A stretch of DNA of 64,000 nucleotides from an uncultured Pseudomonadales bacterium (GTDB lineage Bacteria; Patescibacteriota; Microgenomatia; UBA1400; PJMF01): NCBI GenBank assembly GCA_964645645.1, contig CAZYBC010000004.1, positions 5,148 to 69,147 of the forward strand. Reading direction: 5' to 3'. Position numbers and translations under genes: made by a program. A model generated the notes under the pieces. That model was not told the origin of the DNA and did not search any database. It worked only from the letters and a program-made list of their open reading frames with translations. Below are positions 16,668 through 29,626 of the stretch, piece by piece; position 1 is the stretch's first letter, and each line of letters opens with the position of its first letter.

Positions 16668-17111
16668 TTACTCAATAATTTTAGTTCCACTCCAGCGAAA
16701 AGGTGAAAAATCAATTTTCAATAAATTTTGAAGAGGAAGAAACATTGGTTTTGGCAGCTCATTCCACTTAAACCAACGCCACTCCTCACATTTTGTTGGT
16801 TCCATAACTTCTGGCTCACCACTTTTACTAGATGCAATCACAAAAACAGTGATGTAATGTTTACCTTCTTTATAAAAAATATCATTAGTATATGGACCGT
16901 ATTGTAAATTTGTAATTTCCAAGCCGACTTCCTCTTTTGTCTCTCTCCTAGCACAATCAGCAATACTTTCATTTATTTCAAGATGACCGCCAGGAAAATT
17001 CCAAGTTCCTTCTCCATGTGAATTTTTGCGTTTACCAAGCAAAACTAAATCATCTCTTATGATAATAACTCCCAATCCTACTTTGGGTCGTCCCTTGAGT
17101 ATAATTGACAT
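16668..17111 (-). CDS. NUDIX hydrolase
   Basis: Nudix box GGHLEINESIADCARRETKEEVGL. Confidence 0.85.
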   Translation of the reverse strand: MSIILKGRPKVGLGVIIIRDDLVLLGKRKNSHGEGTWNFPGGHLEINESIADCARRETKEEVGLEITNLQYGPYTNDIFYKEGKHYITVFVIASSKSGEPEVMEPTKCEEWRWFKWNELPKPMFLPLQNLLKIDFSPFRWSGTKIIE

Positions 17112-17118
17112 AACTTAT

Positions 17119-17313
17119 TTAAATATATAATAAACTACTTCTATCTAGTTTAGTAGATTCGGCAACCTTACTCATGTCTTTAATTTTTGCTACATCACCT
17201 AATGCTTTCGCAATGAGTTTATTATCCCCAGTGGCAAAAGAAACATTGAGATATTCTTTAATATCTTTTTCTGTTTTTAGATAATCAGTGGAACTATATT
17301 TTGTTATTTTCAT
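17119..17313 (-). CDS. Truncated HTH addiction-module antidote-like protein (COG3636-like)
   Basis: LIAKALGDVAKIKDMSKVAESTKLDRSSLLY parallels LIAAALGDIARARGMSQLARDTGLSRESLYKAL of that family. The C-terminal end is missing. Confidence 0.4.
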   Translation of the reverse strand: MKITKYSSTDYLKTEKDIKEYLNVSFATGDNKLIAKALGDVAKIKDMSKVAESTKLDRSSLLYI

Positions 17314-17324
17314 AAATAGATCGC

Positions 17325-17957
17325 TTAATGAGTACTTAGACTTTCAGTAAGCGCCCTACCAATCAATTTTTCTAAAAGAGTTAAATCACCTTCATCACCA
17401 GCTTGCATGGCTTTAAGATATTCCTTCCTATCATCATCTGTTCCGACTTGTATTTCAATAGGTGGTAATTTTAATTTCAGTAAAATAAGCGATGTTAATA
17501 TCCGAGCAGTTCGACCATTGTAGTCTTGAAATGGATGAATAAAGACAAACCTATGTTGAAACCAAGCAAGGAAGCAAACGACCTTATCTATATATTCTGG
17601 ATCATTAGATTTAGGCAAACTATTAAGCTGCGCCTTTAAATCATCTAATAAATTTTTAACCAATTCTGGTATTTGAAAATATGCTGGTGCTTCTTTTCCA
17701 GAATAAGTAACTTGGATAGTTCTAAACTTGCCTGCCCAATCAGGGAAAATCCATTGAAAAGAAATCGCATGGAGTTTAAGAATCAATGAAGTAGTAATTT
17801 CTGTGTTTTTTCTAGACTTGATTAAATCATAAATAAACTCTAAGCCTTTTTTTGTGCCTTCTAACTCAAATTGAAGTAATTTTGTGCGAGGAATAATACC
17901 AAAAGCGGTTTCTTTGAAAGAAGTTGCACCTAGTGGTTTTGTGCTATCAATAGACAT
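17325..17957 (-). CDS. Fic/Doc-family protein (putative AMPylating toxin)
   Basis: Fic motif HPFQDYNGRTAR, a variant of HPFx(D/E)GNGRxxR. Confidence 0.75.
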   Translation of the reverse strand: MSIDSTKPLGATSFKETAFGIIPRTKLLQFELEGTKKGLEFIYDLIKSRKNTEITTSLILKLHAISFQWIFPDWAGKFRTIQVTYSGKEAPAYFQIPELVKNLLDDLKAQLNSLPKSNDPEYIDKVVCFLAWFQHRFVFIHPFQDYNGRTARILTSLILLKLKLPPIEIQVGTDDDRKEYLKAMQAGDEGDLTLLEKLIGRALTESLSTH

Positions 17958-18369: not shown

Positions 18370-18910
18370 TAGATAGTTGTGAAGCTCGCCGGGCTAAAGC
18401 CCGGAGCTTCACAGCGGATCTGTGTTTAGTTTGCTGATATACTTGCCTGTATGACAAGCAAGTATCAGGTAGGCTCTCATACTAAACATCGCCTTATTTA
18501 TCACTTCACTTTTATCCCTAAATACCGTAAAGAAATTATTAGAGGAAAGCTTAAAAAAAGACTGATTGAACTCTTTAACGAGTGCGCTTCTGTTAATAAT
18601 TGGTTAATCCTTCAATTGGAAATTCTTTCTGATCACGTCCATTTACTTATTCAACTTAATACTGATGATTCTCCTGCCAAAACTATGCAATTCCTTAAAG
18701 GTGGTTCTTCCATTGTGATCAGAAAAGAATTCCCTGATATCAAAGCTTTCCTCTGGGGTGACTCCTTCTGGGCCGATGGCTATTTTGTGGAAACTATCGG
18801 TATTAAAAATGAAAAAATTATCAGAGCCTACCTGGACTCTCAGCAAACTAAACACTCTAAGCCTCGCATTCACCACCGGGCTTGAAAGCCCGGCGTTCTC
18901 TGCTCAGGCG
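18370..18910 (+). mobile_element. IS200/IS605-family insertion sequence (tnpA only) with subterminal hairpins
   Basis: Left hairpin gaagctcGCCGGGCtaaaGCCCGGagcttc at about 18377-18406. Right hairpin CCGGGCttgaaaGCCCGG at about 18871-18888. The Y1 transposase gene lies between them. Confidence 0.75.
18451..18885 (+). CDS. tnpA: IS200/IS605 Y1 (HUH) transposase TnpA
   Basis: 144 aa with the HUH motif LSDHVHLLI, the typical IS200 TnpA size, and flanking hairpins. Confidence 0.85.
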   Translation: MTSKYQVGSHTKHRLIYHFTFIPKYRKEIIRGKLKKRLIELFNECASVNNWLILQLEILSDHVHLLIQLNTDDSPAKTMQFLKGGSSIVIRKEFPDIKAFLWGDSFWADGYFVETIGIKNEKIIRAYLDSQQTKHSKPRIHHRA

Positions 18911-19286
18911 TTATAGAAAAGTAGGTACTGATTATTTAAGCAATAATACAATTGGATATGCTCACTCAATTATTTTTATAGACGCTCTTATAAAACGAAC
19001 GTCAGAATTATCTGGAAAATCTGAAACAGAGATAAGATATTCATTATATTCTGGGTACTTGAGAGGTGATCACAGTGCACTAAGGGTTTTTAAAGAAACA
19101 TTTGGAGTTAATGCTTTGAGTTATTTATCAATTCTAGATGATTCACATTCATCATGGATGTATATTGAAATAGTTGCAAAAAAATTTGGATTCAAACCTG
19201 ATGAAATAGAACAAATGAAAATAAAAGCACAAGATTATGTCGAAAATAAAAAACCAATTAATATTATGGGAGGAATAATAATATAA
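18882..19286 (+). CDS. Hypothetical protein. The true start is probably internal, because the 5' end overlaps the IS right end.
   Basis: ORF only. Confidence 0.3.
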   Translation: MKARRSLLRRYRKVGTDYLSNNTIGYAHSIIFIDALIKRTSELSGKSETEIRYSLYSGYLRGDHSALRVFKETFGVNALSYLSILDDSHSSWMYIEIVAKKFGFKPDEIEQMKIKAQDYVENKKPINIMGGIII

Positions 19287-19662: not shown

Positions 19663-21414
19663 CTAGCTATTCTTCGTAAAAAGCACTGGAGTATTTGATT
19701 GCGGGCAAACGCCCTCAATTATGTTTGTTTGAATCACTATGGGCATTGGAAATTCATTTCCCGTTAACAAGGCCTGCCCCCTTTTGAAGGTTGGTAAAAA
19801 TGACAACAACCCTAAAGAACTATCTTGCACCGAATTCTTGATTGCCTCAATATCTCGGTCATTTATTAACCTATGAGCTATGAATGTTCCCATTTGACTT
19901 AATACACCTGCAGGAATATCTGCTGGTCTTTGTGTGCTAAGGCATAAAAAAAGTCCAAATTTTCTAGATTCTTTTGCTAGCTTTGCAAATGCGTCTAGTC
20001 TGTATTCGTTAGAGTATTCATCTTTTACTCGATCACGTTCAAAAATTAGGTGGGCTTCATCTACCATTAACACAACTGGTTTCAATTTAAAATTTTTAAA
20101 TACATCTAACTGCTTCCTCAATCCCTCAAGAAAAAACCTACCGATTGCATTACTAAATATATCCCTAGCATATGCATCAGTCGGAATTTGTGAAACGTCA
20201 AGCAAAAGCAATTTTTCGTTAGAATTATAAAATTCAATAAACTCATTCGCAAACTCTTTTAACTCACTTATCTTCTTAAAACCGAACAAAGTTGAAATAC
20301 CATTCTTAACCCTTAAATTTGATATTCTTCTGACAAGGGATGTGCAATGATCCAGGTGTCCCATATTCTGACCACCCCATAAAGCATAATTTTTTTCACC
20401 TTGTCTTGAACCAAATGCAGCGTCGTATACACACTCATACTCTATCTGCTTCATTAATTTTCCAATATCAAAGTCAGCGTATTCATCTTCGACTTGTTCA
20501 ATATATTGTTCATACAAAGTGTTATATTTTACTTTTTCCAAATTTTCTTTAATTATGTACCCTTCCTTAACAATTTCGGATTCATCTGCAACTTTGGCCA
20601 ACTTAAGACTTCTTATGGCTTGTTGCAAAATTGGTTCTTGAACTTGCCCAGATGGTCTAAAAAGTGCAAATAAATCAGATTCAGTCAACTTCTGATATGG
20701 AAAATTTGTGTCCCCACCTTCTCCAAATTTTAACCTTCGTGTATATGTTTGTTTACCAAATACCTCAAATTCACCATTTGCGTCTATTAATACAATTTTG
20801 GAATTATTTTTTTTAACGAGTTCTTCAATTAATTTTGCTAAGGTATAACTCTTCCCACTACCAGTAGTGCCAACAATTGCACAATGTCTTGATAATAGCG
20901 CGTTTGCAGATACTCTGATTGCTTTAGCTGAATCAGAATCGAGCTTGGCTAGTTCAAGTAGATCTTGAGGCGAATTTTTATCGTTTGTCTTCTTGCCAAA
21001 ATCTTTGATTAATTTTTCTAATAATGTAATTGGACAAGCATAGGCTTTTGCACCTATTTCGGGATATTGCTCTACGCCTGCGCCATTGTTCACTAAACTA
21101 AATGAATCGAAAGATAATTGAAATTCAACGATTGCAACGGGATAAGAATTGCTTTTTTTAATTGCAGAACTGCTTTCATATGAAGAATTTTTATCCTGCA
21201 ATACAACCTTGATAGTTTTCGCTAACAAACCATAACCATGCCCCTCAATCACCACATAATTACCAACGAGTCCACCCTGTAGGATTTCACCATCATAATA
21301 AAATCTATCAAGTAATTTAGGAGATGGGAAACAAACGCTTGCTGTTGTAGGCGTAACAGAAGAAACATATCCAATGAACCGTTCACGATTAAAAGGGGAC
21401 GCCGTCATCTTCAA
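19663..21414 (-). CDS. herA: HerA-like (DUF87) ATPase of a SIR2-HerA anti-phage module
   Basis: Walker A GTTGSGKSYTLAKL, Walker B VVLMVDEAHLIF. About 580 aa. Overlaps the upstream SIR2 gene by 26 nt. Confidence 0.75.
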   Translation of the reverse strand: MKMTASPFNRERFIGYVSSVTPTTASVCFPSPKLLDRFYYDGEILQGGLVGNYVVIEGHGYGLLAKTIKVVLQDKNSSYESSSAIKKSNSYPVAIVEFQLSFDSFSLVNNGAGVEQYPEIGAKAYACPITLLEKLIKDFGKKTNDKNSPQDLLELAKLDSDSAKAIRVSANALLSRHCAIVGTTGSGKSYTLAKLIEELVKKNNSKIVLIDANGEFEVFGKQTYTRRLKFGEGGDTNFPYQKLTESDLFALFRPSGQVQEPILQQAIRSLKLAKVADESEIVKEGYIIKENLEKVKYNTLYEQYIEQVEDEYADFDIGKLMKQIEYECVYDAAFGSRQGEKNYALWGGQNMGHLDHCTSLVRRISNLRVKNGISTLFGFKKISELKEFANEFIEFYNSNEKLLLLDVSQIPTDAYARDIFSNAIGRFFLEGLRKQLDVFKNFKLKPVVLMVDEAHLIFERDRVKDEYSNEYRLDAFAKLAKESRKFGLFLCLSTQRPADIPAGVLSQMGTFIAHRLINDRDIEAIKNSVQDSSLGLLSFLPTFKRGQALLTGNEFPMPIVIQTNIIEGVCPQSNTPVLFTKNS

Positions 21415-22681
21415 TGTCCTCTCTAGCAGGTTCTTTTATTAATATACCTTCATGTCTAGCTTCGAAAGTTTTTTCGGCCTCCTCATCAAAGTTAATTGGA
21501 ATTTCATTAACAAATCTTTGAAAAGTATCAGCAATCAATGTGATGTTATTATTTGTTTGATCACTAATTTTTTTGTTGAACATCGACACAACTTCTTGAG
21601 AAGATTTTTCGTCAGTTATTTTTGGTGATACTATTGCTAATTCGAAATTGAGATTAGACTCCAATGCTTCTAAAACCGCTCGATTGATATGTAGATCACT
21701 AAAACTATAGCCGATAACGAGCAAAACGGTATTTTCCTTTCTTAACGTCTGCTGAAACCTTGACATCATTTCAAAAAATGGCATTTGATAGCTTTGCTCG
21801 AATTTATGATTACTTGGGGGAATTATCATCGGATCATCGCTTGGTGTTTGGAGTCGTATAACTTGCGCTTTGTCTTCTGATCCTTCCCAATCTAAAGAAC
21901 CATGAAGTTTGAATAGTTGAAACACTTTTTCCTCATAATTTTCCTGGTCGTGAATTCTGTGATGTTCTCGTTTGACAATATCTAAGTCGAAATTTGAACC
22001 ATGAAAGACGGGTTTTCTAGTAAATGAAAACCCATCAACAATTGTGGCATTAATCATTTCACCTGCTTGCTCAAATAAAGTATCGTAATTCAATGTATAT
22101 AGCTGTAATCTACGTTTGTTTGAACTGCGAGCAGATATGACACTTTTTAAAAATTTCTTATGTGGTGAATTATCATGTAAAAATAAATTGCATTCACTTT
22201 TAATCGTTTTTATTATTGATTGCTTGACTTCGATGCATAATGATACATTTTCTTTTGTTTCTTGTCGTATATCGTATTCATTAGCTGTAGAATACATCTC
22301 AAGTTTGCTAATGAATCGCTCAAGCTGAAAATTATCTTCTTTTTCATTTAACAAATTTTGAAGAGCAGACACCTTCTTTTCATCAATATTTTTTTTGCAT
22401 TCAACCCAAATTTGCCCAACAGTTTTACCAGTATATTTGGTAGATGTTGTATCTAGGCTCTTGCCTTTTTTATCTAAAGTGATGGATGTGCCAGCTCCAG
22501 TTAATACCACAAAGTTGTCAGCCAACAGCCACTCTTTTAATTTTTGAGATATTTCTTGATATGCTAATTTTATACTCGACTCATCAATATAAGTAGAAAC
22601 ACCATCTGTTAATTTTACTTGGGCTTTTGAATTAGCTTTAATGCCAGTACTTGATTTGATCAGAGATAGAGTATCTCCCAT
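21389..22681 (-). CDS. SIR2-domain protein (NAD+-consuming effector of the SIR2-HerA defense system)
   Basis: Sirtuin-fold motifs VVLTGAGTSI (GAGxS), YTLNYDTLFE (TxNxD) and FKLHGSLDW (catalytic His-Gly). Paired with herA. Confidence 0.7.
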   Translation of the reverse strand: MGDTLSLIKSSTGIKANSKAQVKLTDGVSTYIDESSIKLAYQEISQKLKEWLLADNFVVLTGAGTSITLDKKGKSLDTTSTKYTGKTVGQIWVECKKNIDEKKVSALQNLLNEKEDNFQLERFISKLEMYSTANEYDIRQETKENVSLCIEVKQSIIKTIKSECNLFLHDNSPHKKFLKSVISARSSNKRRLQLYTLNYDTLFEQAGEMINATIVDGFSFTRKPVFHGSNFDLDIVKREHHRIHDQENYEEKVFQLFKLHGSLDWEGSEDKAQVIRLQTPSDDPMIIPPSNHKFEQSYQMPFFEMMSRFQQTLRKENTVLLVIGYSFSDLHINRAVLEALESNLNFELAIVSPKITDEKSSQEVVSMFNKKISDQTNNNITLIADTFQRFVNEIPINFDEEAEKTFEARHEGILIKEPAREDIEDDGVPF

Positions 22682-22713: not shown

Positions 22714-24165
22714 TTAACTCGCTTTCACCAACGATGCCTCCAATTCCTCGAATTGCTCTAAGGCATTACGAAGGTTTTCGGTAATTTCAGCAAGTAATAT
22801 CTCTGGCTCAGGTAGGTTTTCTAAATCTTCAAGCGATTCATCTTTAAGCCAAAAAATGTCCAAGCTCGTATTGTCACGCTTTATCAATTCGTCGTAAGAA
22901 AACATTTTGAAACGGTTGGTTTCAGAGCGTTCATGGCGATTGGTGGGGTTGTAGCAAGCAATGAAGTCCTCAAGGTCTTTTAAGGTCATCATATTTTGTT
23001 TTAAGGTGAAGTGTTTATTGGTTCTAAGATCGTAAAACCAAACCTCTTTTGTCCAAGGGTTTTCACTAGCTGGCTTTTTATCAAAAAAGATCACATTAGC
23101 CTTGACTCCATTGGCGTAAAAAATCCCAGTCGGTAATCGTAGGATGGTATGGACATCATAGTCATGCAGTAGCTTCTTGCGTATCGTTTCACCCGCGCCT
23201 GCTTCAAATAGTACATTGTCAGGAACTACCACCGCAGCACGACCACCAATTTTTAGTAGTGTTTTGATGTGTTGTAAAAAGTTTAATTGTTTGTTGGAAG
23301 TAGTCGCCCAAAAGTCTTCTCGCTCATAGGTTTGTTGTTCAGATTCAACCTCTCCAGCGGTATTGGTAATTTTAATACTGCTTTTTCGCCCGAAAGGTGG
23401 ATTAGTTAATACCAAGTCGAATCTATCGCCAGGGTCAGAAATAAGGCTATCTCCTACAGTTACAGGGCTGTTTTCACCGCCTATGCCATGCAAGAACAAG
23501 TTCATAGCACACAGTCTGGCGGTATTATCGACAATATCCCAGCCTTTAAAGGTGTTATTTCGTACAAACATCTGTTGGTCGATATCAAGCTTATGGTGTT
23601 CGTTTAGGTATTCATTAGTTGCTAGGAAAAATCCACCGGTACCACAAGCCGGATCGCACACCGTTTGGCCTGGTTCTGGTCGCATAACCTCCACCATAGC
23701 TCGAATTAAAGCTCTAGGGGTAAAGTATTGCCCAGCTCCGCTTTTGGTATCTTGGGCATTTCGTTCAAGCAAACCTTCGTAGATTTCACCTTTAACGTCT
23801 ACATCTAAGCCCATCCAAGTTTCACCATCGATCAAACTAACCAATCTTTTTAGTTTTGCAGGGTCTTGAATACGGTTTTGTGATTTACGGAAAATTAGGC
23901 CAAGTAAACCGCCTTCTTTTGAAAGCTCAAGCAAAATATGGCGATATTGTGCTTCAAGGTCAGTACCGTTGAGTTTAATTAAACTAGCCCAATCTAAACC
24001 TTCTGGGATTATTGAGGCTCTTTTGGTTAGCTTTGTTTGTTCATCAGCCATTTTGAGGAATAGAAGATAGGTAAGCTGTTCGACGTAATCGCCATAGCTT
24101 ACTCCGTCATCCAACAAAACAGTGCAAAATCCCCAAACTTTATTTACGATATTTGATTTTGTCAT
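22714..24165 (-). CDS. hsdM: Type I restriction-modification N6-adenine DNA methyltransferase HsdM
   Basis: Motif I VCDPACGTGGFF, motif IV LTNPPFG, HsdM N-terminal domain. Confidence 0.9.
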   Translation of the reverse strand: MTKSNIVNKVWGFCTVLLDDGVSYGDYVEQLTYLLFLKMADEQTKLTKRASIIPEGLDWASLIKLNGTDLEAQYRHILLELSKEGGLLGLIFRKSQNRIQDPAKLKRLVSLIDGETWMGLDVDVKGEIYEGLLERNAQDTKSGAGQYFTPRALIRAMVEVMRPEPGQTVCDPACGTGGFFLATNEYLNEHHKLDIDQQMFVRNNTFKGWDIVDNTARLCAMNLFLHGIGGENSPVTVGDSLISDPGDRFDLVLTNPPFGRKSSIKITNTAGEVESEQQTYEREDFWATTSNKQLNFLQHIKTLLKIGGRAAVVVPDNVLFEAGAGETIRKKLLHDYDVHTILRLPTGIFYANGVKANVIFFDKKPASENPWTKEVWFYDLRTNKHFTLKQNMMTLKDLEDFIACYNPTNRHERSETNRFKMFSYDELIKRDNTSLDIFWLKDESLEDLENLPEPEILLAEITENLRNALEQFEELEASLVKAS

Positions 24166-25307
24166 ACTAATTTCCCTTCAAAAGCTTGTTTTAAAATTGA
24201 TTGCTTAAGTTGATTGGTTTTTATTTTTGTCATTTGTAATAAGTTATTCAAATACGCTACTTTCGAAGATATTTCTTCATATTCTAAGTATGCCTGTTCA
24301 ACTGTTTTTCTTTCTGGTACCGGCACACATATTCTTGCAAGAGTTGATTGACTAATAGTGTTTTGCCCGGCCGATGACACCTTGTTTAGCTGAACAAACT
24401 TTCTCATCTTCGAAGTATTCATATACATCTGTACCCACTCAGCTAGATAAGGTTGTTTTAATCGAAATCGAATAAAATGATCACAGAATGCAATATCACC
24501 ATCTAGCCTATTACATAAAATCATTCGTCCAACAAAATTAGTACTCCCGTTAACACGGATGCACAATAAATCGTTTTCAGATAATTTATATTTTTCAATT
24601 TCGTTTTGATCTAATAAAATTGATCTTGTTTTTGTTAAATCTAATTTTTGGTCACTAATATCTGCCAACCTAACAACAACAGTATTTATTCCTGTTGTCC
24701 CAGAACGTTTGCTAATACCATTTTGAGATAGTTCAAATAATTCAGGAAATGTAATCAAATTTGAACTTGGTTGAACATTGTTAAACAATCTTTCAAGCCA
24801 TGAAGCTCTATATGTTTCTGTTTCTATAATTAATTTTTTTATTTCACCTATATTTACATCAATCACTGAAAACAGCTCTTCAATTTTATCGACGATTTTT
24901 TGTTGGTCATCTATTGGAGGGAGTGGAATTTGTAAGGGTGACAAATTAGTCCGAGTAATTTGCGGCTGTGCTGAACCTGAAATTACTTTTGAAAAATCAG
25001 AGCCTATCAAAGCGTATTTTAAAAACAACTTATTAAGGTTATCAGTTTTTGGTTTTGCAACCATTGAATTACCTGTAATCCACGAAAACGCTTCACTAAA
25101 ATTTATCGTTCCACAAGTTGCCCCACGACAAGTAATACAAACCTGTTCATCTTCATGATTGTATTGGTCATAATATCCTATGACGCCATTAGCGCCATAA
25201 ACCTTATATTTCCCATATTTTAAAATTTGCTTTGATGTAATAGTTTTGGGTTGGTATAAATCACACACATCCCCCAAACTTACTTTTTTATAAATACTAT
25301 TTGTCAT
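24162..25307 (-). CDS. hsdS: Type I R-M specificity subunit HsdS (two target-recognition domains)
   Basis: 381 aa with a two-TRD architecture and conserved central and C-terminal helical repeats. 4-nt overlaps with hsdM and hsdR. Confidence 0.8.
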   Translation of the reverse strand: MTNSIYKKVSLGDVCDLYQPKTITSKQILKYGKYKVYGANGVIGYYDQYNHEDEQVCITCRGATCGTINFSEAFSWITGNSMVAKPKTDNLNKLFLKYALIGSDFSKVISGSAQPQITRTNLSPLQIPLPPIDDQQKIVDKIEELFSVIDVNIGEIKKLIIETETYRASWLERLFNNVQPSSNLITFPELFELSQNGISKRSGTTGINTVVVRLADISDQKLDLTKTRSILLDQNEIEKYKLSENDLLCIRVNGSTNFVGRMILCNRLDGDIAFCDHFIRFRLKQPYLAEWVQMYMNTSKMRKFVQLNKVSSAGQNTISQSTLARICVPVPERKTVEQAYLEYEEISSKVAYLNNLLQMTKIKTNQLKQSILKQAFEGKLV

Positions 25308-28012
25308 ATCACTAAATAACTATTCAATTCATTTGTAATCTGCTCTAGTTGCCCGCCAAACACCTCATGAGCCTTAAAGATACCACCCCTATCTCTGAAT
25401 GGAGGTAACTCAAAACTAGTGATTTCTCCATTAAGCTGAATTGAGCCATTGATTGCCACAAAGTCTTTAATCATTTTAAGCCAAAAAAGTTGATCGTCAG
25501 AAAATTGCATACCTTTGGCATGAGTATCATCCAGCCATTTTTGGAATCGCTCTTCAACTGTAGTGGGGAATGGTTCGAGGTCTTGGGATTTATCTACCGC
25601 AAATCGGACTAAGGAAACAATGTTAGTTAACACTCGATCTGGCCTGGCATTTCTGACCTTTGATTTATACAGCTCTCGATATGCATTCCATAGCTGATCA
25701 TTGGTGAATCTGACATTGGCATGAAGCAACCTATCTCGAAGTTCCTTAATTTCTTGGAAGGTCAAAGCCTGTTTTTTGTACGGCTTGTTAAAGATAATTT
25801 GCAAGGCAGTAATTTCATCTTGATTTTGTTTGATGTACTCCTCAAAACTTTGGACTAATTCTTGTGGGGCGATTGGTTCGGGCTTCGGAACGTCAATCGG
25901 ATTGTCTGGGGATAGGTCAATCACTATTTCATTGCGTTGTTTAATATCGAGCATTAACTGTCTAAAGTCGGGATTATCGAAATAATTTAGAGCCTCTTGT
26001 TTCTGTTGTTGCTTTTGCTCATCAGTGCCAGCTTTGTCAGGGTCGATCACATCTAAAAGTTCGTGAGCCACTTGTTTTAAGGTAACTCCATTATTGGCTT
26101 GTTGTAGTTCGTCTTTATCGGAATCAGATAATGATTGTTCAAATTTGGAAATACGACCAGCCAGAGAGGCAATCCCATCATCATCAATGGTTCTTAGGGC
26201 TGCACTTTCAAGCAAGGATTTGAATGACACAAATGGTTGACGCTCAAGAGTACGAGAATCAGTTTTTACGCTTTCAGTTACCCCAACAGCATCAAAAATT
26301 ACAAATCTGTTTTTGTAATCTGCATCAGGTGTGACAGCTTTAAGGTCATCCTCGCCAATGGTACGAGTCCCTCGACCCTTCATCTGCTCAAAATAAACTC
26401 GGGATTTGACATCACGCATAAAGATCAAGCACTCAAGGGGTTTGATGTCGGTACCAGTCGAAATCATATCAACCGTAACGGCTATACGTGGGAAATATGA
26501 ATTGCGGAAACTTTGAATTAAATCTTCGACGTTTTCGCCTGTTCGGTAGGTAATCTTTTTTGCAAACTGATTTCATTTACCAAATACTTCACGCACGATA
26601 TGAACAATCTCCTCTGCATGGTTATCATCTTTGGCAAAAATCAAAGTTTTGGGAACAGTTTCACGATCAGGGAAAATATCAGGCAACCAGTTTTTGAATA
26701 CTCGTATAACAGTTCTAATCTGATCGGGGGCAACTACACTTCGATCAAGCTGACTAGCTTCATAGGTTAAATCTTCATCTAATTGCTCCCATCTAAGTTT
26801 TCTAGTTTGACGATCACGAACATCAACAAAAGTGCCTTGATTGATGGTATTACCTTGCTCACCAATTTGAGTTTTGATGCGGTATACGTCGTAACCAACG
26901 TTAATTCCATCAGCTACAGCACGTTCATGAGAATACTCCATGATGAGATTGCTATTGAAAAAGCCTACCGTATGTTTTGATGGCGTGGCAGTTAATCCTA
27001 TTAGAGTAGCGTCAAAATACTCAAGGACTTGTCGCCAAAGGTTATAAATAGAGCGATGGCATTCGTCGGTTACAATAAAGTCAAAGGTTTCGATAGGTAG
27101 TTTAGGATTGTATTCAACTGGTGCATTATCTTCGTAACTAAAAGCAGGTGGATTATCAAATTGTGAACCTTCTTCCAATGTTTCATCAAAATCTTGATTT
27201 CCTGAAAGAATTGAGTACATGCGTTGGATGGTGCCAATGCAAACTTTACTAACCGGATCAATGCTGGGGCTTTTAAGATGCTGAACGTTGTATAGCTCGG
27301 TAAACTTGCGGCCATCATCGGGAACGGTAAACTTTTGGAATTCTTTGAGTGTTTGTCTGCCCAAGTTGCCACGATCGACTAAAAATAAAATACGTTTGGC
27401 TTTGCCATATTTAAGCAATCGGTAAATAAACGAAGTAGCAGTAAAAGTTTTACCACTACCTGTGGCCATTTGAAGTAAAGCTCGGGGATCGTCTTTGGCC
27501 AATGATTTTTCAAGATTGGTGATAGCCTCAATCTGACAATCACGAAGGCCAACCACGTTTAATTCTGGGAATTTTTGCAAACGACCTCTGAGGGTTGAGT
27601 CATCTTGCACCCATTCAAGTAATGTTTCTGGTTTATGGAAGGCGAACAAGCGTCTGGATCTAGGTTGTGGATCACGTTCATTTCGAAAAAAAGTTTCTGT
27701 TCCAGTACTTTCGTAAGCAAATGGTAGGTTTTCATCCACCTTGGGTAAATTTGGATCGGTACTGGTAATGTACTTGCCAGATTGTTCGGCAACACCGCTA
27801 AGGGTAGTGCCTGCCGCTTTGGCTTCGACTACACCCACTGCTTTTCGATCAACAAAAAGCATGTAATCGGCTGGTCCTTTTTGGGTTGGAAATTCTCTTA
27901 CAGCAACACCTAATTTTGCTCCTAGATTTAATCTGGAGCGATCTTGAATATCCCATCCTGCCTGGATGAGTAATTTATCGATATCTTGTCGTGCTATTTC
28001 TTCTGGTGTCAT
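25304..28012 (-). pseudogene. hsdR: Type I restriction endonuclease HsdR, interrupted by a single in-frame TGA at 26573-26575
   Basis: N-terminal part 26573-28012 has QMATGSGKTFTA and DECHR. C-terminal part 25304-26572 continues in the same frame straight after the TGA (...REVFGK*NQFAKKITYRTGENVEDL...RIAVTVDMISTGTDIKP...QMKGRGTR) with no other stop or frameshift. Confidence 0.8.
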
Positions 28013-28183
28013 ACATATAGTTTCCTGAAAACTGAAGTACTGACAATTATAGCTCTTAGCCTGGGATAATAAAAGAATACAAGTTTACCTCTAAAAAATA
28101 CCTTTTTTGGGGTGGAGTAAGAGAGGTTGTTAGAAATTTAATTCCTCAGCTCAATCCCTATTTTCTCACACTAACAAGCTTTT

Positions 28184-28226
28184 GAAAAAAAAATAGCTGC
28201 AAAAAGTTGGTCAGACTTTTTGCAGC
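28184..28226 (-). terminator. Rho-independent terminator (GCTGCAAAAAGT-loop-ACTTTTTGCAGC, then T-run on the minus strand)
   Basis: 12-bp perfect stem read directly, followed on the minus strand by TATTTTTTTTT. It lies downstream of 28248-28625. Confidence 0.65.
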
Positions 28227-28247
28227 TTGAAGTGATCTGATACCGCG

Positions 28248-28625
28248 CTACTGTTTTTTACGCCAGTTGCGATACCAGATCATAAATGGCAAACCAATTA
28301 ATAAGGCAGCCCCGCCAGCGAAGTAAAAAATCCAGTGGAAACTGAGTCCCATCTCGATTCCTCCTAAGCCAGCGATTAGAATCAACACAAACCACAACCT
28401 AAATTGCAGGTCTTGATCGTGTTTAACTCTAGCGTCAACTGCTTTTGCTCCCTTCATGCTCAAAGCAAACCACCCACGAATTAACAACCCAACTACGATA
28501 CCTCCCACTGCTGACCGAGCAAAGGGAAAGCTACCACCGTATGGAGTCATTAAAAAAATGAGCGCCGCAAGAGCAGAGAGAACTGAGAAAACGTTCACCT
28601 CCTGCTTTGGTGTCATTTCTAACAC
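28248..28625 (-). CDS. Hypothetical small membrane protein
   Basis: Four hydrophobic segments. Local GC looks higher than the flanking chromosome. Confidence 0.45.
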   Translation of the reverse strand: MLEMTPKQEVNVFSVLSALAALIFLMTPYGGSFPFARSAVGGIVVGLLIRGWFALSMKGAKAVDARVKHDQDLQFRLWFVLILIAGLGGIEMGLSFHWIFYFAGGAALLIGLPFMIWYRNWRKKQ

Positions 28626-28728
28626 CTCCTTAGTTGCCGTAAGATTTGCTTTGCGCTAACGCATCGCCACAGCAACTAATAATTATTATATCAAGTAAAA
28701 GCTTAAAAGTAAATATTATAGGATATTG

Positions 28729-28805
28729 GGGTGGCTGACGAGACTTGAACTCGCGACCTCCGCTTTCACAGAGCGGCGCTCTAAACCAACTGAGCTACAA
28801 CCACC
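28729..28805 (-). tRNA. tRNA-His (anticodon GTG)
   Basis: Reverse complement GGTGGTTGTAGCTCAGTTGGTTTAGAGCGCCGCTCTGTGAAAGCGGAGGTCGCGAGTTCAAGTCTCGTCAGCCACCC. 8-bp acceptor stem with an encoded G-1, D-arm, CT-GTG-AA anticodon loop, TTCAAGT T-loop. Confidence 0.8.
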
Positions 28806-28881
28806 ATATAAATGTTAACTGATTAATTTCAGCTAACTTTATTTTTAAAAAAGTCTAAAAGATTTTTCTAAGACTTTTCTG

Positions 28882-28955
28882 TACGCCAAGTAGGACTCGA
28901 ACCTGCGACCTACTGCTTAGAAGGCAGTCGCTCTATCCAGCTGAGCTATTGGCGC
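28882..28955 (-). tRNA. tRNA-Arg (anticodon TCT)
   Basis: Reverse complement GCGCCAATAGCTCAGCTGGATAGAGCGACTGCCTTCTAAGCAGT...TTCGAGTCC...TTGGCGTA. Cloverleaf with a CT-TCT-AA anticodon loop. There is one T-stem mismatch and a G1:U72 pair. Confidence 0.7.
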
Positions 28956-29038: not shown

Positions 29039-29626
29039 TTACTGATTAGCTTCTCCTAGCACAAACCCTTTAGCCTGCCCAAATTGCAAAAAACCATTAA
29101 AATCTAATTTTGTATTACTAATTTTAGAATCAGCAAAATTAGTTCTAAGAATGCTAGCACCACTTAAATCTGCCTTAGCCAAAATGCAATTTTCAAAGCT
29201 GGCTCCATCTAATTTAGCCAAAGAAAAATTAGCTTCTGACAGATCACATTTCATAAAGATACTATTACTCAAATCGCTTTTAGAAAAATTAGTTTTTTGT
29301 AATTTAGCCATTACTTTTAAATTTTTATCTCCAGATTTTAGTTTGTAAAAAATAGCGTTTTCAATTAAACATTCTTCAAAACTGCATTCCTTAAAGTTAA
29401 CTTCGGAAAAATCTAAATAACTTAATTTTGATTCTACAAATTTGCAAAATTCAAAAGCACTCATATCAAAAACCACTTCACTAAAATCACAATTCTGAAA
29501 AACGCAGTGCTTAAAAAATGACAGTCTTAAATTGACCTTACTAAATTTACAGTCAATAAAATTATCTTTTTCAAAATTTTCTCCGCTGAGTTCTGAAATA
29601 TTAAATTGTTTATGACGATAAAACAT
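29039..29626 (-). CDS. Pentapeptide-repeat protein
   Basis: Tandem A(D/N)LSxA pentapeptides (ADLSGASILRTNFADSKISNTKLD). Confidence 0.75.
   Translation of the reverse strand: MFYRHKQFNISELSGENFEKDNFIDCKFSKVNLRLSFFKHCVFQNCDFSEVVFDMSAFEFCKFVESKLSYLDFSEVNFKECSFEECLIENAIFYKLKSGDKNLKVMAKLQKTNFSKSDLSNSIFMKCDLSEANFSLAKLDGASFENCILAKADLSGASILRTNFADSKISNTKLDFNGFLQFGQAKGFVLGEANQ

What the first reader, a model, noticed from the sequence alone, without database searches (positions are those of the whole stretch)
19663..22681. SIR2-HerA anti-phage module embedded in the restriction-modification island
- The 430-aa protein has sirtuin-fold motifs GAGTS, TLNYD and the HG catalytic dyad.
- It overlaps by 26 nt with a 583-aa HerA-type ATPase (DUF87) carrying Walker A GTTGSGKS and Walker B DEAH.
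- This pairing is the SIR2-HerA NAD+-depleting defense system.
- It sits directly downstream of hsdM in the same orientation, forming a five-gene defense operon or island.
Basis: partly seen in the sequence, partly recalled or inferred. Interest (0 to 1): 0.6.

Follow-up and report, generated by a model that had tools for sequence, protein, structure and literature searches.

The report
SIR2-HerA defence pair behind restriction genes
This is a genuine, intact copy of the known SIR2-HerA anti-phage system (an NAD+-destroying enzyme plus a ring ATPase). It is attached to the end of a type I restriction-modification operon whose cutting subunit has been knocked out by a stop codon, so it is a divergent new member of a known kind, not a new system.

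Summary
ORF 21389-22681(-) is a SIR2 protein and ORF 19663-21408(-) a HerA ATPase. Their best PADLOC hits are SIR2 (1.8e-69) and HerA (9.9e-142). A confident AlphaFold model of the SIR2 (pLDDT 86) matches only SIR2 subunits of solved SIR2-HerA complexes at ranks 1-39, with ThsA, SPARSA and KomBC far behind. Catalytic N198/D200/H260 and HerA Walker A/B are intact.

There are two corrections. HerA most likely starts at ATG 21408 (581 aa, 20-nt overlap, as in relatives), not at TTG 21414. The 'five-gene operon' contains a dead gene, because hsdR carries an in-frame TGA at 26573-26575.

The host is probably a Patescibacteria (CPR) MAG. The pair is divergent: the nearest SIR2 is 65% identical and the nearest HerA 76%.

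One extra lead emerged. In this short-HerA clade, 11 of 16 distinct loci sit directly behind, or once inside, restriction-modification operons of several types, often with overlapping or near-abutting ORFs. The figure is about 27% for 56 canonical SIR2-HerA loci. This may be ordinary defence-island clustering or real functional coupling; I could not tell which.

Verdict: new member of a known kind, moderate-low interest.

The parts
21389..22681 (-). SIR2-family NADase subunit of a SIR2-HerA system (430 aa). GAGTS 62-66; catalytic N198/D200 in TLNYD; H260 in KLHGS.
   Evidence: PADLOC SIR2 PDLC04075 1.8e-69 and Pfam SIR2_2. PDB sequence hits only to SIR2 of SIR2-HerA complexes. AF2 model pLDDT 86, Foldseek ranks 1-39 all SIR2-HerA SIR2 chains. 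N198, D200 and H260 invariant in 121 homologues.
19663..21408 (-). HerA-family hexameric ATPase/translocase subunit (581 aa from ATG 21408; the longest ORF starts at TTG 21414). In 581-aa numbering: Walker A GTTGSGKS 180-187, Walker B VDEAH 449-453, conserved STQRP 491-495.
   Evidence: PADLOC HerA PDLC04103 9.9e-142 covering residues 5-577; Pfam DUF87 + HerA_C. PDB hits to defence HerAs 8xau, 8wiv, 8yho, 8j4u_M. The 581-aa form is on record. 76% identical to the HerA of L001, aligned from residue 1.
22714..24165 (-). hsdM, type I restriction-modification methyltransferase. It ends 32 nt upstream of the SIR2 start.
   Evidence: PADLOC MTase_I 2.6e-196; Pfam N6_Mtase + HsdM_N. Junction sequence with GTGAGGA ribosome-binding site.
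24162..25307 (-). hsdS, type I specificity subunit. It has 4-nt overlaps with both hsdR and hsdM.
   Evidence: PADLOC Specificity_I 1.7e-42; Pfam Methylase_S. Coordinates.
25304..28012 (-). hsdR, type I restriction subunit of the EcoEI_R_C type. It is inactivated by one in-frame TGA at 26573-26575 (codon 480), which splits it into ORFs of 479 and 387 aa.
   Evidence: Pfam HSDR_N + ResIII in the first ORF, EcoEI_R_C in the second. The same reading frame continues through the stop. An HsdR homologue in L079 aligns straight across the stop. TGA is an ordinary stop in this window, ending 9 of 41 long ORFs.
28066..28095 (-). Promoter-like site upstream of hsdR; candidate operon promoter.
   Evidence: Consensus scan, 9 of 12 matches. 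Weak evidence only.
28195..28227 (-). Strong terminator-like hairpin (13-bp stem plus T-run) ending the preceding gene. It marks the upstream edge of the operon.
18451..18885 (+). IS200/IS605-type Y1 transposase (tnpA), about 780 nt beyond the HerA stop. It interrupts the island.
   Evidence: Pfam Y1_Tnp 1.4e-34. Flanking palindromes are visible and as inverted repeats I5 and I7.
17325..17957 (-). Fic/DOC protein, candidate further defence gene of the same island.
   Evidence: Pfam Fic. PADLOC PDC-S04 2.6e-29 and SoFic 1.2e-15.
16668..17111 (-). NUDIX hydrolase, candidate defence-associated gene.
   Evidence: Pfam NUDIX 1.8e-24. PADLOC PDC-S07 6.2e-16.

Best explanation
An intact two-gene SIR2-HerA (Nezha-type) abortive-infection module lies at the 3' end of a type I restriction-modification operon (hsdR-hsdS-hsdM-sir2-herA). 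It is probably co-transcribed with that operon. The host is a low-GC chromosome, probably of a Patescibacteria/CPR bacterium.

By homology with the solved E. coli, Paenibacillus and S. aureus systems, the mechanism would run as follows:
- HerA forms a hexameric ATPase ring that binds a double-layered SIR2 dodecamer.
- Assembly and activation open the SIR2 NAD+ pocket.
- On phage infection the complex hydrolyses NAD+ (nuclease and helicase activities are also reported), which stops the infected cell from producing phage.

The restriction subunit of the neighbouring type I system carries a premature stop. That system can therefore at most methylate, while SIR2-HerA is left as the functional defence.

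Shown here: family membership by sequence and fold, intact catalytic and ATPase motifs, conserved gene order and overlap, and the hsdR nonsense codon.

Inferred: complex stoichiometry, NADase activity, co-transcription, the trigger, and anti-phage function in this host.
For: - **Profiles.** PADLOC SIR2 1.8e-69 and HerA 9.9e-142, near full-length. Pfam SIR2_2, DUF87 and HerA_C.
- **Solved structures by sequence.** The SIR2 hits only SIR2 subunits of SIR2-HerA complexes; the HerA hits defence HerAs.
- **Fold.** AF2 model pLDDT 86. Foldseek ranks 1-39 are all SIR2-HerA SIR2 chains, TM 0.55-0.76.
- **Catalytic residues.** N198/D200/H260 align with Paenibacillus N163/D165/H212 and S. aureus N226/H287 (PMC11472057; PMC11514289). 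They are invariant in 121 homologues.
- **ATPase motifs.** Walker A Lys and Walker B DE are present.
- **Conserved pairing.** SIR2 is immediately followed by HerA in all related loci that extend far enough. The same 20-nt overlap is seen in L001, L004, L006, L010 and L011.
- **Operon signals.** Only a 32-nt gap with a ribosome-binding site separates hsdM from sir2. hsdR/hsdS and hsdS/hsdM overlap by 4 nt. A terminator plus a promoter-like site lie upstream of hsdR, with no convincing terminator inside.
- **hsdR stop.**
- **Host.** The nearest named UvrB relatives are Woesebacteria, Pacebacteria and Patescibacteria. The nearest SIR2-HerA relatives are in Saccharibacteria and Nomurabacteria MAGs.
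Against: - There is no experimental evidence for this locus.
- The pair is divergent from every characterised system: about 20-23% SIR2 identity to solved structures.
- HerA is about 115 aa shorter than Paenibacillus HerA and ends about where that protein's C-terminal arm domain (aa 576-696) begins. S. aureus HerA is also short (562 aa).
- I could not model the complex or HerA itself.
- Co-transcription rests on gene spacing and weak consensus scans.
- The hsdR TGA could be a sequencing or assembly error in a MAG.
Confidence: 0.85

Rival explanations
1. RM-coupled module. In this short-HerA clade, SIR2-HerA is not autonomous but is the abortive-infection arm of a composite restriction-modification operon. 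It could be a PrrC/PARIS-like guardian that fires when the restriction enzyme is inhibited. Alternatively, HerA could load on the DNA ends or stalled translocation complexes that restriction creates on unmodified phage DNA.
For: - **Frequency.** 11 of 16 distinct loci of the clade have RM genes directly adjacent on the same strand.
- **RM types seen.** Type I (window); type III (L011, L095, L096); PLD-SNF2 nuclease-helicase + MmeI-like methyltransferase (L004, L006, L010); type II NgoPII + C5 methyltransferase (L015); MmeI-like IIG (L018); Eco57I methyltransferase + helicase + GmrSD (L017).
- **Tight junctions.** They are mostly tight: L004/L006 4-nt overlap, L010/L011 8-nt, L017 1-nt, L016 4-nt gap, L096 5-nt gap. 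Gaps elsewhere run up to 61 nt (L015).
- **One insertion inside an operon.** In L016 the pair sits between type III mod and res.
- **Comparison set.** The rate is 15 of 56 in distant canonical SIR2-HerA loci (Fisher p = 0.003).
- **Open question in the field.** A 2025 mini-review lists the Sir2-HerA trigger as 'Unclear' (PMC12198126).
- **Precedent.** RM guardians embedded in RM loci are established (PrrC in EcoprrI, PARIS; PMC12707154).
Against: - Published SIR2-HerA pairs protect when moved alone into hosts lacking them (PMC11472057).
- 5 of 16 clade loci have no adjacent RM (L001, L008, L093, L094, L097).
- The RM partners belong to unrelated families, which argues against a specific protein-protein interface.
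- The hsdM 90%-identity cluster has 10 members on 10 contigs, but the HerA cluster has only this one, and no SIR2 above 65% identity exists. The two modules therefore have separate histories.
- In the window hsdR is dead while SIR2-HerA is intact.
- The loci are not phylogenetically independent, the RM seed set was drawn from the clade itself, and the sample is small.
- Defence-island clustering and selection for co-transfer explain the adjacency without any coupling.
Confidence: 0.15
2. Decaying island. The SIR2-HerA pair, like hsdR, is a non-functional remnant of a horizontally acquired defence island that is being eroded by a nonsense mutation and an IS200 insertion.
For: hsdR carries a nonsense codon. 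An IS200-type transposase sits about 780 nt beyond the HerA stop. Relatives often carry a third gene (DUF2779) after HerA that is absent here.
Against: Both ORFs are full-length relative to homologues and align end to end. All invariant catalytic and ATPase residues are retained. Ribosome-binding sites and the conserved 20-nt overlap are intact. The DUF2779 gene is missing in several other clade loci too (L001, L006, L008).
Confidence: 0.07
3. A different SIR2 or P-loop system: a Thoeris ThsA-like, DSR-like or Argonaute-associated SIR2 effector, or a conjugative VirB4/TraG-type ATPase, placed side by side by chance.
For: There are weaker PADLOC hits to Aga_SIR2 (2.2e-30) and weak Pfam hits of the HerA Walker-A region to TrwB_AAD_bind, FtsK_SpoIIIE and AAA_10.
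Against: - No ThsA or DSR model appears among the 25 hits shown.
- The best SIR2 model scores about 39 orders of magnitude better than Aga_SIR2.
- Foldseek puts ThsA, SPARSA and KomBC at or above 9e-8, against 7e-23 for SIR2-HerA SIR2.
- No Argonaute, TIR or SLOG partner gene is present.
- The HerA profile match is full-length, whereas the conjugation-family matches cover only about 40 residues.
Confidence: 0.01

Closest known systems
E. coli SIR2-HerA ('Nezha') system (PDB 8su9, 8sub, 8uae, 8j4u)
   Same: Two-gene SIR2 then HerA architecture. The SIR2 fold is the best structural match (Foldseek E 7e-23, TM about 0.65-0.72). The Asn/Asp/His catalytic residues and HerA Walker motifs are conserved.
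   Different: Only about 21% SIR2 identity. The window SIR2 has an extra N-terminal beta-rich segment of about 50 aa before GAGTS. HerA is 581 aa against 610 aa. Here the pair is appended to a type I RM operon.
Paenibacillus sp. 453MF SIR2-HerA (PDB 8w9l, 8wiv, 8wld; PMC11472057)
   Same: Best sequence-level PDB hit for the SIR2 (7.8e-23). N163/D165/H212 correspond to N198/D200/H260. The ORFs overlap (26 nt reported there).
   Different: Paenibacillus HerA is 696 aa with a C-terminal arm domain (aa 576-696). The window HerA ends at about the equivalent of residue 580, so it lacks that domain.
Staphylococcus aureus Sir2-HerA (PDB 8yhx, 8yho; PMC11514289)
   Same: Short HerA (562 aa) of similar size. 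Catalytic N226/H287 are equivalent to N198/H260. HerA binding activates the Sir2 NADase.
   Different: About 20% SIR2 identity. Whether the window SIR2 is a dimer or a dodecamer on its own is unknown.
DUF4297-HerA defence system (PDB 8xau family)
   Same: HerA is nominally the top PDB sequence hit (2.4e-26). It has the same HerA hexamer-plus-effector logic.
   Different: The effector there is a DUF4297 nuclease, not SIR2. The score is no better than for SIR2-HerA HerAs (1.7e-25 to 3e-24), so the hit does not discriminate.
PrrC-EcoprrI and PARIS (restriction 'guardian' abortive-infection systems; PMC12707154)
   Same: An abortive-infection effector gene is physically embedded in, or attached to, an RM operon.
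   Different: The proteins are unrelated (anticodon nuclease; AriA/AriB). No evidence here shows that SIR2-HerA senses RM inhibition. The resemblance is positional only.

Membership tests
SIR2-HerA (Nezha) anti-phage system | A SIR2-family protein of the SIR2-HerA subtype, not ThsA, DSR or Argonaute-associated | tested here: met
   PADLOC SIR2 PDLC04075 1.8e-69, near full-length. PDB phmmer hits only to SIR2 of SIR2-HerA complexes. Foldseek ranks 1-39 are all such chains. That these PADLOC models belong to the SIR2-HerA system definition is from my knowledge of PADLOC naming; it was not verified here.
SIR2-HerA (Nezha) anti-phage system | Catalytic Asn (and Asp) of the NYD motif plus catalytic His | tested here: met
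   N198/D200/H260 align to Paenibacillus N163/D165/H212 and S. aureus N226/H287. They are invariant in 121 homologues.
SIR2-HerA (Nezha) anti-phage system | A HerA-family (DUF87/FtsK-HerA) ATPase with intact Walker A and Walker B | tested here: met
   PADLOC HerA 9.9e-142 over residues 5-577. Pfam DUF87 5.9e-25 and HerA_C 8.1e-11. GTTGSGKS and VDEAH present.
SIR2-HerA (Nezha) anti-phage system | SIR2 gene immediately upstream of HerA on the same strand, as a conserved pair | tested here: met
   20-nt overlap in the window. SIR2 is followed by HerA in all related loci that extend far enough.
SIR2-HerA (Nezha) anti-phage system | Assembly into a HerA hexamer : SIR2 dodecamer supramolecular complex | not testable with these tools
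SIR2-HerA (Nezha) anti-phage system | HerA-dependent NADase activity, NAD+ depletion on infection, and phage protection | not testable with these tools
   Requires experiment.
Type I restriction-modification system | HsdM and HsdS present and intact | tested here: met
   PADLOC MTase_I 2.6e-196 and Specificity_I 1.7e-42. Pfam N6_Mtase, HsdM_N and Methylase_S.
Type I restriction-modification system | Intact HsdR (nuclease plus both helicase lobes in one polypeptide) | tested here: not met
   In-frame TGA at 26573-26575 between the ResIII lobe and the second helicase lobe/EcoEI_R_C.
Thoeris ThsA / DSR SIR2 effectors | Best profile or fold match to ThsA (SIR2-SLOG) or DSR, with a TIR (ThsB) partner for Thoeris | tested here: not met
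   No ThsA or DSR model among the PADLOC hits shown. ThsA Foldseek E about 1e-7 against 7e-23. No TIR or SLOG gene nearby.
DUF4297-HerA system | HerA paired with a DUF4297 nuclease | tested here: not met
   The partner is SIR2_2, not DUF4297.
MADS (methylation-associated defence system) | Multi-gene mad1-mad8 set | tested here: not met
   Only secondary hits to mad2 (HsdM, 5.8e-62), mad5 (HsdS, 3.1e-26) and mad8 (HerA, 1.1e-21). All are far below the type I and HerA models, and no other mad genes were seen.
RM 'guardian' abortive-infection modules (PrrC-like) | Effector gene embedded in or attached to an RM operon | tested here: met
   Window and 10 further clade loci.
RM 'guardian' abortive-infection modules (PrrC-like) | Effector activity depends on the state of the RM enzyme | not testable with these tools
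   Requires genetics or biochemistry.

The most novel reading that the evidence does not exclude
The short-HerA SIR2-HerA clade, found largely in CPR/Patescibacteria, may be a restriction-coupled abortive-infection arm and not an autonomous system. It has been repeatedly fused into operons of unrelated RM types. It could fire when restriction is blocked, or when restriction produces DNA ends or stalled translocases on foreign DNA. If so, that would supply the still-unknown trigger of SIR2-HerA.
Probability: 0.15. Interest if true: 0.7.

Novelty: new member of a known kind. Interest (0 to 1): 0.35.

Why it matters
On its own this is a correct annotation of a known defence system in a poorly studied lineage, probably a CPR/Patescibacteria MAG. 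It is a divergent sequence variant: at most 65% (SIR2) and 76% (HerA) identity to anything found in the very large collections searched.

The wider value is the context pattern. This clade sits behind, or once inside, restriction-modification operons of at least six different kinds, often with overlapping or near-abutting ORFs. The activating signal of SIR2-HerA is still listed as unclear. A reproducible genomic link to restriction enzymes is therefore a cheap, testable lead: does restriction activity, or its inhibition, trigger the NADase? If the link is only defence-island clustering, the finding stays routine.

Tried and rejected
- **Metagenome scan.** The context sample therefore stayed small.
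- **Exact look-ups.** The look-up of encoding contigs found nothing for the window's own SIR2 or HerA.
- **First AF2 run.** With 18 sequences it gave pLDDT 60 with the catalytic core disordered, and I discarded it. Re-running with 121 sequences fixed this.
- **Island boundaries.** No repeat of the tRNA-His 3' end marks an integration site. No direct or inverted repeats flank the SIR2-HerA cassette.
- **Lost third gene.** tblastn found no remnant of the DUF2779, SLFN_AlbA or Res genes that follow HerA in relatives.
- **Alternative genetic code for the hsdR TGA.** I considered code 25 or 4. I rejected it because TGA ends 9 of 41 long ORFs and long ORFs are unbroken under table 11.
- **RNA families.** Rfam found only three tRNAs.
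- **Literature.** Searches found no paper describing SIR2-HerA as RM-embedded. The library lacks most subscription journals, so this is not proof of absence.
- **MADS.** I considered MADS because of the mad2, mad5 and mad8 hits. I rejected it because they are secondary to the type I and HerA models.
Full report
**1. Observation**

The minus strand of the window carries an uninterrupted run of ORFs:

| Coordinates | Length | Identity |
|---|---|---|
| 26573-28012 | 479 aa | hsdR, first part |
| 25304-26467 | 387 aa | hsdR, second part |
| 24162-25307 | 381 aa | hsdS |
| 22714-24165 | 483 aa | hsdM |
| 21389-22681 | 430 aa | SIR2 |
| 19663-21414 | 583 aa from TTG | HerA |

- The 430-aa product contains GAGTS (62-66), TLNYD (196-200) and KLHGS (258-262).
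- The HerA product contains GTTGSGKS and VDEAH.

**2. Identity of the pair**

Profile searches:
- PADLOC gives SIR2 PDLC04075 at 1.8e-69, covering residues 13-406 of the SIR2.
- It gives HerA PDLC04103 at 9.9e-142, covering residues 5-577 of the HerA.
- All the other SIR2 hits shown are 'SIR2' or 'Aga_SIR2' models, with no ThsA or DSR among them.
- Pfam gives SIR2_2, and DUF87 + HerA_C. Conjugation-type P-loop families match only about 40 residues around Walker A.

Solved structures by sequence:
- The SIR2 matches only three distinct PDB sequences, all of them SIR2 subunits of solved SIR2-HerA systems: 8w9l (Paenibacillus), 8yhx (S. aureus) and 8j4u/8su9 (E. coli).
- HerA matches the defence HerAs 8xau, 8wiv, 8yho and 8j4u_M at 1e-24 to 1e-26.

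Fold:
- An AlphaFold2 model built from only 18 sequences was poor (pLDDT 60).
- With 121 homologues it reached pLDDT 86 and pTM 0.86.
- Foldseek against the PDB returned SIR2 chains of SIR2-HerA complexes at ranks 1-39 (E 7e-23 to 4e-12).
- KomBC, ThsA and SPARSA began only at about 9e-8.

Catalytic residues:
- The published residues are Paenibacillus N163/D165/H212 (PMC11472057) and S. aureus N226/H287 (PMC11514289).
- They align to N198/D200/H260, which are invariant across 121 homologues.

**3. Two corrections**

*(a) HerA start.*
- The longest ORF begins at TTG 21414, giving a 26-nt overlap.
- ATG 21408 has a GAGAGGA Shine-Dalgarno 8 nt upstream.
- The 581-aa product is the one on record from an NCBI 74,345-bp contig.
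- Relatives align from residue 1.
- L001, L004, L006, L010 and L011 all show a 20-nt SIR2/HerA overlap.
- So the overlap is most likely 20 nt.

*(b) hsdR is a pseudogene.*
- The two hsdR ORFs are in the same frame, separated by a single TGA at 26573-26575 (...VFGK*NQFAKKITY...).
- The first part carries HSDR_N + ResIII. The second carries the C-terminal helicase lobe and EcoEI_R_C.
- An HsdR homologue from L079 aligns straight through the stop.
- TGA is an ordinary stop here, ending 9 of 41 long ORFs, so an alternative genetic code is not the explanation.
- The 'five-gene operon' is therefore hsdR(pseudo)-hsdS-hsdM-sir2-herA. The type I system can at best methylate, unless the TGA is an assembly error.

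**4. Operon and island**

- hsdR/hsdS and hsdS/hsdM overlap by 4 nt.
- hsdM and sir2 are separated by 32 nt containing a GTGAGGA ribosome-binding site.
- A strong hairpin-plus-T-run terminator (28227-28195) and a promoter-like site (28095-28066) lie upstream of hsdR. Nothing convincing lies inside the run.
- Co-transcription is therefore likely, but it is inferred.
- tRNA-His and tRNA-Arg sit just upstream (28727-28955), and uvrB lies beyond them.
- Downstream of HerA come about 380 nt of non-coding DNA, an unannotatable 134-aa ORF and an IS200-type tnpA.
- Next come a Fic protein (PADLOC PDC-S04 2.6e-29, SoFic 1.2e-15) and a NUDIX protein (PDC-S07 6.2e-16).
- The defence island therefore spans roughly 16.6-28.0 kb.
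- I found no att-like repeat or cassette-flanking repeat.

**5. Host and divergence**

- UvrB's nearest named relatives are Candidatus Woesebacteria (67%), then Pacebacteria and Patescibacteria (about 63%).
- The hsdM 90% cluster includes a Woesebacteria MAG.
- The nearest genomic SIR2-HerA relatives are in Saccharibacteria, Nomurabacteria and Gracilibacteria MAGs.
- The window is thus probably from a CPR/Patescibacteria MAG with about 35% GC.
- The closest SIR2 among 5.8 billion protein clusters is 65% identical, followed by a clade at about 49-56%.
- HerA is 76% identical to its closest relative and 65-68% to the rest of the clade.
- HerA in this clade is short (about 560-610 aa). It ends about where the C-terminal arm domain of the 696-aa Paenibacillus HerA begins. 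S. aureus HerA is similarly short (562 aa).

**6. Context in relatives (the one new lead)**

I examined 16 distinct loci of the short-HerA clade. Eleven have restriction-modification genes directly adjacent on the same strand.

| Locus | Adjacent RM genes |
|---|---|
| Window | Type I |
| L011, L095, L096 | Type III Mod...Res, then SIR2-HerA |
| L016 | Type III Mod, SIR2-HerA, then Res (the pair sits inside the operon) |
| L004, L006, L010 | PLD-SNF2 nuclease-helicase + MmeI-like methyltransferase |
| L015 | NgoPII endonuclease + C5 methyltransferase |
| L018 | MmeI-like type IIG enzyme |
| L017 | Eco57I-type methyltransferase + helicase + GmrSD |

- Junctions range from an 8-nt overlap to a 61-nt gap. 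Many are overlapping or separated by only a few nucleotides.
- Five loci lack an adjacent RM: L001, L008, L093, L094 and L097.
- Among 56 distant canonical SIR2-HerA loci, about 15 have an RM gene in the equivalent positions (Pfam on 54 upstream proteins; seed-based classification).
- Fisher p = 0.003, or 0.012 after collapsing the three related PLD-SNF2 loci.

Caveats:
- The loci are not phylogenetically independent.
- The RM seeds came from the clade itself.
- The planned metagenome scan failed.

Evidence against obligate coupling:
- The partner RM families are unrelated to one another.
- Published pairs work alone in heterologous hosts (PMC11472057).
- The window's hsdM has nine ≥90% relatives on other contigs, while its HerA has none and no SIR2 exceeds 65% identity. 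The two modules therefore joined independently.

Reasons the lead is still worth following:
- RM 'guardian' abortive-infection genes embedded in RM loci are an established concept (PrrC, PARIS; PMC12707154).
- The SIR2-HerA trigger is listed as unclear (PMC12198126).
- I found no paper describing this association, though the searchable library is incomplete.

**7. Mechanism**

The most likely mechanism follows the solved homologues (confidence about 0.85):
- A HerA hexamer binds a SIR2 dodecamer and relieves SIR2 autoinhibition.
- NAD+ is hydrolysed during infection and the infection aborts.
- ATPase activity is required for this.

Membership and motif integrity are shown here. Assembly, activity, trigger and expression are inferred.

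Rivals:
- RM-coupled effector, about 0.15. This modifies the main reading and does not replace it.
- Decaying remnant, about 0.07.
- A different SIR2 or P-loop system, about 0.01 and effectively refuted.

**8. Verdict**

- The finding is real and correctly interpreted, apart from the HerA start and the dead hsdR.
- It is a new, divergent member of a known kind in an under-sampled lineage.
- Interest is moderate-low (0.35). It is lifted slightly by the recurrent embedding in RM operons, which is a testable lead to the unknown trigger.

Noticed in passing
window 26573-26575 (within hsdR 25304-28012, minus strand): A single in-frame TGA splits the type I restriction subunit between its two helicase lobes. 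hsdS and hsdM are intact, so the system looks methylation-only. It could also be a MAG assembly error.
   Followed up: yes
window 21389-21408 and alignment A1: The nearly invariant C-terminal (I/V)PF tail of the clade's SIR2 proteins lies inside the 20-nt overlap with herA (SIR2 ...GVPF* / HerA MTASPF...). Its conservation may reflect dual-coding constraint and not a docking motif.
   Followed up: partly
L004 13031-14518, L010 13025-14512, L011 11853-13346: In several relatives a 495-aa DUF2779 protein follows HerA with overlapping stop and start codons. It gives weak Cas4-like PD-(D/E)xK nuclease hits. L011 then has a PIF1 helicase. This may be a third component of some cassettes. No remnant is present in the window.
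   Followed up: partly
L016 7936-15394 (Candidatus Nomurabacteria MAG): SIR2-HerA is inserted between type III mod and res, with near-abutting junctions. This is the clearest case of the pair lying inside an RM operon.
   Followed up: partly
window 16668-17957 (minus strand): A Fic/DOC protein (PADLOC PDC-S04/SoFic-like) and a NUDIX hydrolase (PDC-S07-like) lie just beyond the IS200 element. A Fic gene also directly precedes SIR2 in relative L008. NUDIX enzymes can act on ADP-ribose, which is the SIR2 product.
   Followed up: partly
window 18370-19286: An IS200/IS605-type Y1 transposase (18451-18885) is flanked by GC-rich palindromes. A 134-aa ORF with no family match begins inside the element's right end. 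No tnpB is present.
   Followed up: partly
window 28727-28955 (minus strand): tRNA-His(GTG) and tRNA-Arg(TCT) lie immediately upstream of the island, next to a 125-aa ORF that looks hydrophobic by eye and has no family match (28248-28625). No att-like repeat of the tRNA 3' end was found.
   Followed up: yes
window 29039-29626 (minus strand): A 195-aa pentapeptide-repeat protein sits between the tRNAs and uvrB. Its exact sequence is not in the protein collection.
   Followed up: no
L019 10001-10555 (Candidatus Gracilibacteria MAG): The SIR2 homologue appears only as a short ORF fragment under table 11. The likely reason is that this lineage reads TGA as glycine (code 25).
   Followed up: no
window 22714-24165 versus 19663-22681: hsdM has nine other members in its 90%-identity cluster, from other contigs, including a Woesebacteria MAG. 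HerA is a singleton cluster, and the SIR2 has no relative above 65% identity. hsdM and hsdR are also more GC-rich (0.40-0.42) than sir2-herA (about 0.34-0.355). The RM and SIR2-HerA modules seem to have separate origins.
   Followed up: partly
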